Position numbers: made by a program
From: Escherichia coli
Lineage (GTDB): Bacteria; Pseudomonadota; Gammaproteobacteria; Enterobacterales; Enterobacteriaceae
NCBI RefSeq assembly: GCF_024298765.1
Contig: NZ_CP101210.1
DNA: 64,000 nt
Direction: 5' to 3' (one strand)
Shown here: in pieces, positions 58,301 to 61,300 of the stretch
Position numbering within the stretch: position 1 is the first letter of the stretch
Layout of the letters: every line of letters begins with the position of its first letter

Positions 58301-61300
58301 ATTGGCTGAATGGTGCACTGAGATATCTGTTCGACAATTGTCACCCTGATCAACCGGTGGATGCCGGGGCTTATCTGTCCTATCTGGAGAGTCAGGCTCG
58401 CCGCTTTGTCTTCCAGCGCTTTTTAGCGCCTGGTGAAGGGGCTTCCTATTACCAGATGCTCTACCTTGATAACGCCCTGTTGCCCGCCATCAATGTGGAT
58501 GAGAGTTGGCACAAGGTGATTACATCCAAACTTCGCTTCGGTCATATCGAGAACAACTTTGTCTTCAACTTCCTCGACTATCTGCTGTGGGTACGAGATC
58601 GGAATAGCGACAAAGTTGCTGGCTCCTTTGAGTTCACTTTCCGCAGCTCGGTGGAGCACTTCTCACCCCAGCATCCGATGGATGGCTATAAACCGGTTGA
58701 GCAGAGTGCACTCCATTCGTTTGGCAACCTTTGCCTTATCAGCCACAGCAAGAACTCGCGCTTGAGTAACTTCCAGCCGCAACAGAAGCAGGAGCACTTT
58801 GAAGCAAGCCTTGCCAATAACCAGACTGATAGTCTTAAATTGCTTGCTATGATTCGGCTGATGAAAGATAAAGGTCGTTGGCTGGAAGATGAGATAGCTG
58901 TGCATCAACAAGATATGTTGCAGGTCTTACTATCCAATCAAATTCAGCAATAACGGATTGAATCTGTTGGTGATGCTGCCAACTTACTGATTTAGTGTAT
59001 GATGGTGTTTTTGAGGTGCTCCAGTGGCTTCTGTTTCTATCAGCTGTCCCTCCTGTTCAGCTACTGACGGGGTGGTGCGTAACGGCAAAAGCACTGCCGG
59101 ACATCAGCGCTATCTCTGCTCTCATTGCCGTAAAACATGGCAACTACAGTTCACTTACACCGCCTCTCAGCCCGGTACGCACCAGAAAATCATTGATATG
59201 GCCATGAATGGCGTTGGATGCCGGGCAACCGCCCGCATTATGGGCGTTGGCCTCAACACGATTTTCCGCCATTTAAAAAACTCAGGCCGCAGTCGGTAAC
59301 CTCGCGCATACAGCCGGGCAGTGACGTCATCGTCTGCGCTGAAATGGACGAACAGTGGGGCTACGTAGGTGCTAAATCACGTCAGCGCTGGCTGTTTTAC
59401 GCGTATGACAGGATACGGAGGACGGTTGTGGCGCACGTCTTCGGTGAACGCACTCTGGCCACACTGGAGCGTCTTCTGAGCCTGCTGTCGGCCTTTGAGG
59501 TCGTGGTATGGATGACGGATGGCTGGCCGCTTTATGAATCACGCCTGAAGGGAGAACTGCACGTTATCAGCAAGCGATTTACGCAGCGCATTGAGCAGCA
59601 TAACCTGAATCTGAGGCAGCATCTGGCAAGGCTGGGCAGGAAGTCACTGTCGTTCTCAAAATCGGTGGAGCTGCATGACAAAGTCATCGGGCATTATCTG
59701 AACATAAAACACTATCAGTAAGTTGGAGTCATTACCCAGCTCATCGCGCAGTGAGCCAAAATCCGCATCTGAAGCACGGTCAAAAAGGTAATCCAGTTTG
59801 CGATTTACGTCGCTCAGCTGGTTGGTAACTATTTTCAACCCGGACTCCAGATCACCTGGGCCAGCTTCAAGGCAGCGCCGCAGATACTCTGACCGATTAC
59901 CACCTGAAACCAGGTCTATATAGGCCAAAAGTTCATCTGATACTTTTGCGGTTATTGTTGGCATCCAGTCCTCACTTTGTGCATTTTTTAAACGAAAAAA
60001 GGGTGTCTAATACGGTGAAATCATAGTATTACCAAAGTAATAAATAAAAATTGTTTTAAATCAGTAGGTTAGATTAGATTTGTAATGCCTGGGTAATACC
60101 GCAGCATGGCTAAATTTGGTTTTTTTTCTTTTAAATCAGTTGGATAGCGTGATTTATCACGCTGCGTTAGGTGTATAGCAGGTTAAGGGATAAAAAATCA
60201 TCTTTTTTTGGTAGGGCGATCTCCGTAGGTTAAGGGTCATTTGGCTAAAAAGCGTCCTATTCTTTGATGGTCATGCTTGCATGACCATCTGAGCAACCAA
60301 AAACTACAGATAAACTACAGATAAACTACAAAAAACGTTTTGCCTTAGTATTGGAAGACTACAAATAGACTACAATAAAACTACAAAGAAACTACAAAAA
60401 ACATGACAGACTACAAATAGACTACAAGAATACTACAGATAAACTACAAAACTCGATTGACCCCTTCTTACGAGTGTTGTAGAGTCATTTTCATACAACG
60501 GAGGGGGTTATGAATAAACCAGCAGATCTGAAACCCCGCAACTTATCGGCTGCTGTCAGATTGCGCCTAAATGAAATCGAGAACTGGCTGGACAGAGGGC
60601 TAACGCGGCATGAAATTGCTGAAATCCTCGACAGCGAATACAGCTTTTCGGTAACAGCCAAAGGGCTTGAGATGGCACTGTATAGAACGCGGCAAAACCG
60701 AAAAAATGTATTGCACAATACACATGATAAGAGTAGCGCGAAGGGTGCAGCGGAAAGTGTATTGCACAATACACAACCGTCTGAGCCTGAAGCGCAGGAA
60801 AGTGAAAAAGCAGAGAGTCCCGGCATTATTGATAAAGAATTCTTCAATAAAATCGGTGAGAATTTCGACCCTAAGAAGTTCAACAAAAAATTCTGAGGTG
60901 ATTTATGAAAGTAGCGGTAATTAATTACAGTGGCAGTGTTCGTAAAACCTTAATTTCATCTTACCTGTTAGCTCCGCGCCTGACTGGTGCAAAGTTCTAT
61001 GCGGTAGAGACTATCAACCAGTCTGCTTCCGATCTGGGTATTGAAAATGTGACCAGTTTTAAAGGTGACGACTTCTCACGTTTGATTGAGGGGTAATGAC
61101 TCCAACTTACTGGTAGTGTTTTAGCGAAGTTAAGTGACACAATAGTTTAATCTGGAGGAATTAATGAAGAGTTATGAGTAATTTTAATTTTCTAACAGAC
61201 ATCAGCCCTGAACTCGCTCAATTTGGTAAAAGTGCCGAGCTGTATTACCATGATGATAAGCAGGTAGCACTAGTGAAACTTAGGTGTTTTACTGAAGTAG

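What the first reader, a model, noticed from the sequence alone, without database searches (positions are those of the whole stretch)
60266..60452. Eleven-copy iteron-like array with helical-turn periodicity and an adjacent perfect palindrome
About 11 copies of an ACTACA(A/G)A core at 11-bp spacing in three clusters (3+4+4), preceded by a perfect 10-bp inverted repeat (GATGGTCATG n4 CATGACCATC). This looks like a replication origin, partition site or operator array for a cooperative DNA-binding protein and is not explained by any annotated gene. It is not a CRISPR array: the repeats are too short and have no spacers.
Basis: seen in the sequence. Interest (0 to 1): 0.5.

Follow-up and report, generated by a model that had tools for sequence, protein, structure and literature searches.

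The report
IncN plasmid StbA-binding repeats beside oriT
The repeat array is real, but it is an ordinary, already understood kind of element: the binding-site array (centromere and operator) for the small plasmid protein StbA, lying next to the transfer origin of an IncN-type resistance plasmid, a fragment of which has been carried into this E. coli chromosome by IS1 insertion sequences.

Summary
There are 11 direct ACTACA copies on an 11-bp register (3+4+4), a twelfth inverted copy over the -10 of the downstream promoter-like site, and a perfect palindrome with 11-bp arms at 60266-60289.

The array is not a replication origin. The 1.35-kb segment 59737-61091 is an IS1-bounded remnant of an IncN plasmid oriT-stb region. 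Its parts, in order, are:
- a truncated traK;
- a nic region 54/57 identical to the pKM101 oriT substrate;
- the palindrome;
- the array;
- an intact stbA (NCBIfam StbA_2, 206 bits);
- a truncated stbB.

The StbA N-terminal domain is homologous to the R388 StbA DNA-binding domain (PDB 7pc1). R388 StbA binds two sets of five 9-bp repeats on an 11-bp period (stbS), and this is shown experimentally. The window's array has the same geometry, including an 8-bp phase jump between repeat sets.

Among IncN plasmids the repeat sequence tracks the StbA N-terminal domain (ACTACAAA here, TACATCA in R46), not TraK or nic.

Best reading: an stbS-type StbA centromere and auto-operator next to oriT, here a chromosomal relic. 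It is a specificity variant of a known kind, of low interest.

The parts
58969..59736 (+). Complete IS1 copy that forms the left boundary of the plasmid-derived fragment and truncates traK
   Evidence: The InsA/InsB ORFs are listed. RefSeq annotates it as an IS1 family transposase. BLAST to other IS1 copies and the break in homology to IncN plasmids both fall at 59737. The terminal repeat is visible.
59737..59964 (-). Truncated traK (relaxosome accessory protein). The first 76 of 138 codons remain, and the frame reads on into IS1 (ORF 59656-59964).
   Evidence: 91% identity to R46 TraK over residues 1-76 only. Homology to the R46 and pL22-2 DNA starts at 59737.
60146..60163 (+). nic-proximal inverted repeat (relaxase recognition hairpin AGCGTGAT-TT-ATCACGCT)
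   Evidence: It matches the hairpin part of the pKM101 oriT35/oriT57 substrates. It folds as ssDNA at -7 kcal/mol, z = -2.9. It is conserved in R46.
60170..60179 (+). nic site GGTGT|ATAGC, with cleavage inferred between 60174 and 60175. The + strand is the transferred strand, so the array and stbA would enter a recipient first.
   Evidence: The pKM101 pre-nic oligo ends ...GGTGT and the post-nic oligo begins ATAGCAGG.... Window 60138-60194 is 54/57 identical to oriT57. Guynet et al. place the stb genes on the 3' side of nic.
60266..60289 (.). Perfect palindrome GATGGTCATGC-TT-GCATGACCATC. It is an oriT-specific element of unknown ligand.
   Evidence: arms 100% complementary. ssDNA hairpin -9.6 kcal/mol, z = -4.8. 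Three arm positions change on both sides between IncN type A and types B/C while the symmetry is kept. There is one copy per plasmid. R388 has a palindrome in the corresponding position.
60300..60335 (+). Repeat cluster 1: three 11-bp units (core ACTACA at 60303, 60314, 60325)
60355..60401 (+). Repeat cluster 2: four 11-bp units (60358, 60369, 60380, 60391), in phase with cluster 1
60407..60453 (+). Repeat cluster 3: four 11-bp units (60410, 60421, 60432, 60443), shifted by 8 bp relative to clusters 1 and 2
   Evidence: The same 8-bp shift occurs in R46, in IncN type C plasmids and in R388 stbS.
60457..60485 (+). Promoter-like site TTGACC-17 nt-TAGAGT for stbA. The -35 is bracketed by the last direct unit and an inverted partial unit (IR 60444-60455 / 60471-60482).
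   Evidence: Consensus scan (this is a pattern match only). IR I3. The sequence is conserved in all type A loci.
60477..60482 (-). Twelfth, inverted copy of the repeat core (CTACAA on the - strand), overlapping the -10 hexamer
   Evidence: The CTACA core is kept (as CTGTAG) in the most diverged type A locus L017 although its neighbouring bases change.
60510..60896 (+). stbA, intact, 128 aa. It has an N-terminal tri-helical HTH domain, a disordered linker with two VLHNT units and a conserved C-terminal tail.
   Evidence: NCBIfam StbA_2 NF041290, 205.7 bits against a cut-off of 100. The profile hits PDB 7pc1 (R388 StbA DNA-binding domain) at E = 3.8e-4. In the AF2 model residues 11-60 have pLDDT 94-97, and 7pc1 is the top Foldseek PDB hit. 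RefSeq names it StbA.
60905..61091 (+). Truncated stbB (ParA-like ATPase). 62 of 238 codons remain, and the Walker A glycine is changed (GSVGKT to GSVRKT).
   Evidence: NCBIfam StbB matches profile positions 1-61 of 233, below the cut-off. 95% identity to R46 StbB residues 1-62.
61092..61123 (+). 32-bp IS1 terminal remnant (GGTAATGACTCCAACTTACTGGTAG...) that forms the right boundary of the fragment
   Evidence: The sequence is. Homology to intact IncN plasmids stops at 61089-61091, whereas IncFIA/IncR plasmids with the same truncation match on to 61123.

Best explanation
The array is the stbS-type binding-site array of the plasmid protein StbA. It lies in the leading-side half of an IncN (R46/pKM101-family) origin of transfer.

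Mechanism, inferred by homology with R388:
- StbA monomers or dimers use their N-terminal HTH domain to bind each ~9-bp site (consensus A-R-ACTACA-R-A).
- The sites recur every 11 bp, about one helical turn, so the proteins line up on one face of the DNA and bind cooperatively.
- They form two nucleoprotein blocks whose faces are rotated by 8 bp.
- The complex is expected to do three things. It represses the stbA promoter, where the last direct unit and an inverted unit bracket the -35 and cover the -10. It acts as the centromere-like site that keeps plasmid copies positioned on the nucleoid without needing the StbB ATPase. Because it sits about 130 bp from nic, it also damps conjugative DNA processing.

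In this window the element is a 1.35-kb IS1-bounded remnant in the E. coli chromosome. traK and stbB are truncated, and traJ, traI, stbC and the T4SS are absent. It can therefore only autoregulate stbA and, possibly, serve as a cis-acting oriT for a co-resident IncN plasmid.

Shown here: the anatomy, the homology, and the covariation of repeat sequence with StbA domain. Inferred: StbA binding to ACTACA units, repression, partition activity, and mobilisability.
For: 1. Identity of the locus.
- The 1151-bp region matches 1880 plasmid records, and stbA is annotated under the match in the listed rows.
- Intact IncN conjugative plasmids (pL22-2, R46) have the order mobF - T4CP gene - traK - [nic, palindrome, array] - stbA - stbB - stbC.
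- The nic region is 54/57 identical to the pKM101 oriT57 substrate.

2. The protein.
- NCBIfam StbA_2 scores 206 bits.
- The family profile hits the R388 StbA DNA-binding domain, PDB 7pc1, at E = 3.8e-4 across residues 6-63, including the LYRxR motif.
- 7pc1 is the top structural match of the AF2 model: probability 0.95, rmsd 2.0 A, 28% identity.

3. The paradigm. R388 StbA binds stbS, two sets of five 9-bp repeats with 2-bp spacers in the stbA promoter next to oriT. stbS is required for StbA-dependent stability, and StbA represses the promoter.

4. Geometry.
- The window has an 11-bp period and two phase groups offset by 8 bp.
- The same offset is present in pL22-2, R46, two IncN type C plasmids and R388 itself (gap 52 = 44+8).
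- The distance from nic to the first unit is 129 bp here and 127 bp in R388.

5. Specificity covariation.
- R46 and R388 share the recognition-helix pattern VN(V/L)(R/N)(S/T)F and near-identical sites, TTACATCA(T) and TTGCATCAT.
- The window type has VTAKGL and ACTACAAA.
- The StbA C-terminal part stays about 85-90% identical between the two IncN types.
- The recombinant pPM46-KPC_24k has the window-like traK-proximal sequence but type B repeats together with type B StbA.

6. Selection. In the most diverged type A locus (78.6% identity) the ACTAC core is kept while the spacers change. Copy number varies from 9 to 15 by whole 11-bp units or whole clusters.
Against: - No binding experiment exists for any IncN StbA, of either type, in the literature I could search.
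- The structural match has a weak Foldseek E-value (0.65), and the profile hit is only moderately significant.
- Unlike R388, paired repeats occur nowhere else on pL22-2 or R46. A global-regulator role is therefore not supported for IncN.
- The repeat orientation relative to stbA is opposite to that in R388.
- The promoter assignment rests on a consensus scan that found no more sites than shuffled sequence gives.
- In this chromosomal copy there is nothing to partition, so the function here may be nil.
Confidence: 0.85

Rival explanations
1. The 11-bp repeats are mainly relaxosome architecture. On this reading they are binding or bending sites for TraK, TraI or IHF that raise oriT nicking and transfer efficiency, and they are not StbA sites.
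For: The array lies inside what has been called the oriT region of R46-family plasmids, about 130 bp from nic. From memory only, because the paper is not held here: Coupland et al. 1987 reported 13 direct 11-bp repeats in R46 oriT, some within the segment needed for high-frequency transfer. R46 does have exactly 13 units. The phased A-tracts in the units would bend DNA (inference).
Against: The repeat sequence does not track the relaxosome. TraK is 91% identical and the nic region nearly identical between the window and R46, yet the repeats are completely different and track the StbA N-terminal domain instead. The recombinant L009 separates the traK-proximal sequence type from the repeat type. 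In R388, stbS was reported as not required for conjugation, and it mediates the effect of StbA on transfer.
Confidence: 0.08
2. The array is a set of iterons of a plasmid replication origin, bound by a Rep initiator.
For: Tandem direct repeats on a helical register in an A+T-rich intergenic region resemble iterons. The fragment often sits near rep genes in mosaic IncR/IncFIA plasmids.
Against: The units are 11 bp, whereas iterons of theta-replicating plasmids are usually about 17-22 bp (general knowledge). There is no rep gene in or beside the fragment. There is no DnaA box within 20 kb. In R46 and pL22-2 the annotated replication initiation gene lies about 11-13 kb from the array. The adjacent rep genes in the mosaic plasmids are separated from the fragment by IS elements or by the end of the shared DNA.
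Confidence: 0.02
3. The array is a ParR/parC-type (type II) or ParB/parS-type centromere that works with an actin-like or Walker-type motor.
For: As discussed in the StbA structure paper, the centromeres bound by ParR of pB171 and pSK41, and tubC of pBtoxis, are organised very similarly to stbS: sets of direct repeats upstream of their operon. A ParA-like gene, stbB, follows stbA.
Against: The binding protein is an HTH protein of the StbA family, not an RHH ParR or a ParB. In R388 the ParA-like StbB is dispensable for stability. Here stbB is truncated at codon 62, and other truncated copies were found in plasmids.
Confidence: 0.03

Closest known systems
R388 (IncW) StbA / stbS segregation-regulation system
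   Same: Both have a small StbA with an N-terminal tri-helical HTH domain, and the two domains are homologous. Both have ~9-bp direct repeats with an 11-bp period, in sets, in and upstream of the stbA promoter. In both, the array lies between oriT nic and stbA, divergent from the relaxosome operon. Both have two phase groups offset by 8 bp and a nic-to-array distance of about 128 bp. Both have a perfect palindrome just before the array.
   Different: The site sequence differs (ACTACAAA against TTGCATCAT), and the orientation relative to stbA is opposite. The counts are 7+4 units in three clusters against 5+5. There are no secondary repeat pairs at other promoters in the IncN relatives. The StbA C-terminal region is unrelated to that of R388 and carries VLHNT repeats. 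In this window stbB is truncated and stbC is absent.
R46 / pKM101 / pCU1 (IncN) oriT with its 11-bp direct repeats
   Same: The backbone is the same: traK (91% identity), the nic hairpin and nic site, the TCATGCTTGCATGA palindrome core, three repeat clusters with the 8-bp phase jump, the stbA C-terminal half and stbB.
   Different: R46 units are (A/K)TACA(T/A)CA and there are 13 of them. The outer arms of its palindrome differ, with compensating changes. Its StbA N-terminal domain is only about 30% identical to the window's. Its best promoter-like site lies inside cluster 2, whereas the window type has an extra ~35 bp carrying TTGACC-17-TAGAGT after the array.
ParR/parC (pB171, pSK41) and TubR/tubC centromeres
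   Same: All use phased direct repeats in sets, bound cooperatively on one DNA face, that double as the operator of their own operon. This comparison is made.
   Different: The DNA-binding protein families are unrelated (RHH ParR, winged-HTH TubR), and those systems need a dedicated NTPase motor. StbA systems do not.
Iteron-type plasmid replication origins
   Same: Both are tandem direct repeats in an A+T-rich intergenic region.
   Different: The unit length differs, and there is no Rep gene, no DnaA boxes and no linkage to the IncN replicon.

Membership tests
StbA/stbS system (R388 paradigm) | Small StbA protein whose N-terminal domain is the tri-helical HTH of R388 StbA(1-75) | tested here: met
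   NCBIfam StbA_2 scores 205.7 bits against a cut-off of 100. The profile of 18 homologues hits 7pc1 at E = 3.8e-4 over residues 6-63. In the AF2 model residues 11-60 have pLDDT 94-97, and 7pc1 is the top Foldseek PDB hit (probability 0.95, TM 0.61 on the target, E = 0.65).
StbA/stbS system (R388 paradigm) | Sets of ~9-bp direct repeats separated by 2 bp (11-bp period) in or upstream of the stbA promoter | tested here: met
   There are 11 direct units with an 11-bp period, ending 7 bp before the -35. One inverted unit lies over the -10. The information content per unit covers about 9-10 positions.
StbA/stbS system (R388 paradigm) | Location on the leading side of oriT nic, divergent from the relaxosome accessory gene | tested here: met
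   nic lies at 60174|60175, truncated traK is on the - strand at 59737-59964, and stbA is on the + strand.
StbA/stbS system (R388 paradigm) | Two repeat sets out of helical phase with one another | tested here: met
   The offset is 8 mod 11 in the window, pL22-2, R46 and IncN type C plasmids, and in R388.
StbA/stbS system (R388 paradigm) | Repeat consensus (T/C)TGCATCAT | tested here: not met
   The consensus here is A-R-ACTACA-R-A. This is read as a specificity variant, because the StbA recognition helix differs in parallel.
StbA/stbS system (R388 paradigm) | Complete stbABC operon | tested here: not met
   stbB is cut at codon 62 by IS1 and stbC is absent. The operon is complete in the parental-type IncN plasmid pL22-2.
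StbA/stbS system (R388 paradigm) | Additional repeat pairs in other promoters (StbA regulon) | tested here: not met
   ACTACW-N5-ACTACW occurs only at the stbA site in the whole of pL22-2. TACAWCA-N4-TACAWCA occurs only at the stbA site in the 50,000 of 50,969 bp of R46 that were scanned.
StbA/stbS system (R388 paradigm) | StbA binds the repeats, and the repeats are needed in cis for stabilisation | not testable with these tools
   This needs EMSA or footprinting and plasmid-loss assays. It has been shown only for R388.
IncN (R46/pKM101) MOBF oriT | Recognition hairpin plus nic sequence GCGTTAGGTGT|ATAGCAGG | tested here: met
   54/57 identity to pKM101 oriT57. One of the three differences makes the hairpin perfect.
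IncN (R46/pKM101) MOBF oriT | Cognate relaxase TraI, coupling protein TraJ and accessory TraK encoded alongside | tested here: not met
   Only 76 codons of traK remain. The ORF list and RefSeq annotation show no mobF or T4CP gene near the fragment. The site could act only in cis with functions supplied in trans.
Iteron replication origin | Adjacent Rep initiator gene, DnaA boxes, and iterons of about 17-22 bp | tested here: not met
   There is no rep ORF and no DnaA box within 20 kb. The unit is 11 bp. The IncN replication gene is about 11-13 kb away in intact plasmids.

The most novel reading that the evidence does not exclude
IncN-family plasmids carry at least two interchangeable StbA specificity modules. 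Each consists of an N-terminal HTH domain, its cognate 11-bp array and the outer arms of the palindrome. The module is swapped by recombination just 3' of nic, while the relaxosome and the StbA C-terminal tail stay constant. The minimal core of oriT, stbS and stbA, which needs no ATPase, may be a portable stabilisation-and-mobilisation cassette. It appears to have been retained through independent IS-mediated truncations in many IncR/IncF-type plasmids and in some E. coli chromosomes. A chromosomal copy would make the chromosome transferable, in the manner of an Hfr strain, by any co-resident IncN plasmid. It might also exert centromere-type incompatibility against incoming type A IncN plasmids.
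Probability: 0.3. Interest if true: 0.45.

Novelty: new member of a known kind. Interest (0 to 1): 0.2.

Why it matters
For annotation, a conspicuous and unannotated repeat array present in many enterobacterial plasmids can now be labelled as the StbA-binding site next to an IncN oriT.

Biologically, the ACTACA-type array with its cognate StbA domain is a natural specificity variant. It could be used to map how the StbA HTH domain reads DNA. The 8-bp phase jump, conserved from IncW to IncN, is a constraint that any model of the StbA segregation complex must explain.

For epidemiology, an intact IncN oriT in a chromosome, and in plasmids that lack a relaxase, is a plausible handle for mobilisation by IncN plasmids. 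None of this changes the basic picture, so the finding is ordinary.

Tried and rejected
- Pfam (local copy) found nothing for StbA, the StbB remnant or the TraK remnant. The large protein collection lists a newer family, PF28167, for the StbA homologues.
- A single-sequence search of the PDB found only a spurious bS20 match in the low-complexity linker. The profile search was needed to reach 7pc1.
- Rfam at a permissive threshold gave only a chance mir-33 match over the intragenic palindromes.
- The classic IncN oriT papers are not held: Paterson 1999 (PMC93686) could not be read, and searches did not return Coupland 1987 or Paterson and Iyer 1992. The statement that R46 oriT has 13 direct 11-bp repeats therefore rests on my memory and on my own count in the R46 sequence.
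- The pCU1 relaxase paper holds no oligonucleotide sequences as text.
- R388 under accession BR000038 is not in the collections. It was reached through a tblastn search instead.
- I looked for a resemblance between the palindrome half-site and the repeat unit, which would make the palindrome a StbA site. It is weak for type A (3 of 7 positions) and was not pursued.
- I looked for secondary operator pairs elsewhere on IncN plasmids and found none.
- The replication-origin reading was rejected.
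Full report
**Observation**

ACTACA occurs 11 times on the + strand between 60303 and 60448. The start-to-start spacings are 11, 11, 33, 11, 11, 11, 19, 11, 11, 11, which gives three clusters of 3, 4 and 4.

- Nine copies fit ACTACARA. The 64-kb window has 13 such matches against 3.0 +/- 1.7 expected, and nine of them lie within 150 bp.
- Tandem Repeats Finder also reports period 11.
- The palindrome has 11-nt arms (GATGGTCATGC / GCATGACCATC) with 2 nt between them, at 60266-60289.

Two things were missed.

- A twelfth, inverted core (TTGTAG, 60477-60482) overlaps the -10 of a TTGACC-17-TAGAGT promoter-like site at 60457-60485. With the last direct unit it forms an inverted repeat that brackets the -35.
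- Clusters 1 and 2 are in helical phase, whereas cluster 3 is displaced by 8 bp.

**What the locus is**

The region 59950-61100 matches 1880 plasmid records (Klebsiella 912, Escherichia 539). It also matches 447 of 5426 complete E. coli genomes, with a median of one place per genome: 474 places on plasmids and 39 on chromosomes. ORF 60510-60896 is annotated as 'plasmid stabilization protein StbA' in the listed rows. The window itself is 100% identical over this region to the chromosome of E. coli 2020CK-00188, inside a mosaic island near the ykg/ecp/pao genes.

BLAST against intact IncN plasmids shows that only 59737-61091 is plasmid-derived.

- On the left is a complete IS1 (58969-59736).
- On the right is a 32-bp IS1 end (61092-61123).

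Within the fragment:

- The minus-strand ORF is TraK. It is 91% identical to R46 TraK over residues 1-76 of 138 and then runs into IS1.
- ORF 60905-61096 is StbB. It is 95% identical to R46 StbB over residues 1-62 of 238, and its Walker A glycine is changed to arginine.

In the conjugative IncN plasmids R46 and pL22-2 the full order is mobF (relaxase), T4CP gene, traK, intergenic region, stbA, stbB, stbC.

**The intergenic region is an origin of transfer**

Window 60138-60194 is 54/57 identical to the pKM101 'oriT57' oligonucleotide. The authors split that oligonucleotide into a pre-nic 35-mer ending GGTGT and a post-nic 22-mer starting ATAGCAGG (PMC9868005 supplement).

- By alignment, nic falls between 60174 and 60175 on the + strand.
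- The recognition hairpin is 60146-60163.
- The array and stbA lie on the 3' side of nic, which is the side that enters a recipient first. Guynet et al. note the same arrangement for stb operons in general (PMC3098194).

**The protein**

ORF 60510-60896 scores 205.7 bits against NCBIfam StbA_2, whose cut-off is 100. The local Pfam copy and a single-sequence PDB search were uninformative.

- A profile of 18 homologues hits PDB 7pc1, the DNA-binding domain of R388 StbA, at E = 3.8e-4 across residues 6-63. The match includes the LYRxR motif.
- An AlphaFold2 model has pLDDT 94-97 for residues 11-60 and a disordered linker (pLDDT below 50 at residues 72-102). Its best PDB match is 7pc1: probability 0.95, rmsd 2.0 A over 54 columns, 28% identity. 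The Foldseek E-value is weak at 0.65.

**The paradigm**

In R388, StbA binds 'stbDR' repeats, which are 9 bp (consensus (T/C)TGCATCAT) separated by 2 bp.

- Two sets of five, in the stbA promoter next to oriT, form the centromere-like site stbS.
- stbS is needed in cis for StbA-dependent stability.
- StbB, the ParA-like ATPase, is not needed for stability.
- StbA represses its own promoter and modulates conjugation through these repeats.
- The 11-bp period was interpreted as placing StbA on one face of the helix (PMC3098194 and bioRxiv 10.1101/2022.04.29.490116).

**Architecture compared directly**

I extracted the arrays from eleven related loci and from R388.

| Source | Clusters | Phase groups |
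|---|---|---|
| Type A, window | 3+4+4 (11 units) | 7 then 4 |
| Other type A loci | 2+3+4, 3+3+3, 2+4+4, 5+5+4, 4+7+4 | last cluster shifted |
| Type A, L014 and L018 | 2+4+4+4 | each added block shifted again by 8 bp |
| R46 | 5+2+6 = 13 units | 7 then 6 |
| Two IncN type C plasmids | 3+3+3 and 3+3+4 | last cluster shifted |
| R388 | 5+5 (the 5th unit of set 1 and the 4th of set 2 are degenerate and fixed by register) | 5 then 5 |

- In type A, total copy number ranges from 9 to 15. The inter-cluster gaps are always 33 bp and then 19 bp.
- The last cluster in R46 and in the type C plasmids is also shifted by 8 mod 11.
- In R388 the two sets of five are separated so that the second is likewise shifted by 8 mod 11 (gap 52 = 44+8). 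The distance from nic to the first unit is 127 bp, against 129 bp here. A 10-bp-arm palindrome precedes the R388 array, as the 11-bp-arm palindrome does here.

This agreement in geometry, despite different site sequences, is the strongest structural argument that the window's array is an stbS. One difference is that the R388 units read on the strand opposite to stbA.

**The repeats follow StbA, not the relaxosome**

- Between the window and R46, TraK is 91% identical and the nic region nearly identical. The repeat units nevertheless differ throughout: A-R-ACTACA-R-A against A-K-TACA-(T/A)-CA.
- The two StbA proteins differ in exactly one module. The N-terminal ~65 residues are about 30% identical, whereas the C-terminal part is about 85-90% identical.
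- R46 StbA and R388 StbA share the start of the recognition helix, VN(V/L)(R/N)(S/T)F, and have near-identical sites. The window type has VTAKGL and a different site.
- Plasmid pPM46-KPC_24k is a natural recombinant. It has the window-like traK-proximal sequence, but from about 40 bp past nic it carries the type B palindrome, type B repeats and type B StbA.
- Chimeric StbA proteins also exist (P0109).
- In the most diverged type A locus (78.6% identity) the ACTAC cores, including the inverted one over the -10, are kept while the spacer bases change.

**The palindrome**

- It occurs once per plasmid, always at this position.
- Its central TCATGCTTGCATGA is invariant.
- Three outer positions differ between type A and types B/C, with compensating changes in both arms. 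Only three distinct sequences are available, and 18 of 500 shuffles do as well.

The dyad symmetry is therefore selected. I cannot tell whether it is a site for a dimeric protein or a hairpin in the transferred strand (-9.6 kcal/mol, z = -4.8). Its ligand is unknown.

**Rival readings**

- Replication origin. This is excluded as far as sequence can exclude it. The units are 11 bp, there is no rep gene in the fragment, there is no DnaA box within 20 kb, and the IncN replication gene is about 11-13 kb away in intact plasmids.
- Pure relaxosome-architecture role. This is disfavoured by the covariation described above and by the R388 genetics. The array may still influence transfer, as the R388 repeats do through StbA.
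- ParR/parC-type or ParB/parS-type membership. This fails on the protein family, and on the fact that StbB is dispensable in R388 and absent here.

**Differences from R388**

- No secondary repeat pairs exist elsewhere on pL22-2, or in the 50,000 of 50,969 bp of R46 that were scanned. A wider StbA regulon is therefore not supported for IncN plasmids.
- The window type carries an extra ~35 bp after the array, which holds the best promoter-like site. In R46 the best site lies inside cluster 2. These promoter calls are consensus matches only.

**Context and dissemination**

The same core of oriT, array and stbA occurs with independent truncations.

- It is IS1-bounded here and in IncFIA/IncR plasmids.
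- It is bounded by IS903B and strAB in an IncR plasmid, where traK is entirely gone and the match ends 75 bp into stbB (window 60979).
- On plasmid pQnrS1_005237 it is followed by the same downstream genes as in this chromosome, at 99.8% identity over 59943-64000.
- Published work has noticed 'oriT-R46 family' sequences on IncR plasmids.

Whether the core is retained by selection, for ATPase-free stabilisation plus mobilisability, is an inference that I did not test.

**Verdict**

The finding is real and explained. It is an stbS-type array of StbA binding sites beside an IncN oriT, here as an IS1-bounded chromosomal relic. It is a specificity variant of a known kind, and its interest is low. 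The modest points of interest are:

- the modular swap of DNA-binding domain and array within IncN;
- the 8-bp phase jump conserved from IncW to IncN;
- the possibility that the chromosomal oriT can be mobilised.

Noticed in passing
window 60706-60723 and 60757-60774 (inside stbA): An 18-bp palindrome GTGTATTGCACAATACAC occurs twice inside the stbA coding sequence, 51 bp apart, and each copy encodes the peptide VLHNT. StbA homologues carry 1-4 such units. The same palindrome also lies outside stbA in IncN plasmids. In R46 it sits 17 bp upstream of the SprT-like gene (30003-30020) and at the end of the ORF after stbC (22546-22563). It occupies the equivalent places in pL22-2. There are 4-5 sites per plasmid against 0.03 expected. 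This looks like an operator for an unidentified dimeric regulator, embedded in a coding region.
   Followed up: partly
window 61174-64000 (runs off the end): A large gene encodes DUF4145, a RecD/PIF1-like helicase core (AAA_30, UvrD_C_2) and a TBP-TOTE domain (PF22721, E = 6e-28). According to RefSeq it is followed by a TPR protein and IS903B. This is a TOTE-type conflict-system candidate. It travels with the stbA fragment both in this chromosome and on plasmid pQnrS1_005237.
   Followed up: partly
window about 55470-58953: Two adjacent DUF262-domain genes lie immediately left of the IS1. The second is 56911-58953 and encodes 680 aa. They resemble GmrSD-type modification-dependent nucleases.
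   Followed up: no
window 60905-61096: Besides being truncated, the StbB remnant has its Walker A glycine changed (GSVGKT in R46, GSVRKT here). The same 63-aa product (WP_000861580.1) is annotated at this position in several plasmids and chromosomes.
   Followed up: yes
window 60303-60450; L003, L005, L007, L008, L020: The second phase group of StbA repeats is displaced by exactly 8 bp (mod 11) in every array examined, from IncW R388 to three IncN types. Where an extra cluster has been duplicated (L014, L018) it is displaced by a further 8 bp. No published model that I read explains this conserved rotation.
   Followed up: partly
L009 (pPM46-KPC_24k) 2501-3000; P0109: Natural recombinants exist between the two IncN StbA/array types. 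The crossover lies about 40-60 bp 3' of nic, or within the stbA linker.
   Followed up: partly
window 58969-59736 and 61092-61123: The IncN fragment is flanked by a complete IS1 and by a 32-bp IS1 end. The same terminal repeat (GGTAATGACTCCAACTTA...) faces the fragment on both sides, which suggests that an IS1 composite structure was later eroded on the right.
   Followed up: partly
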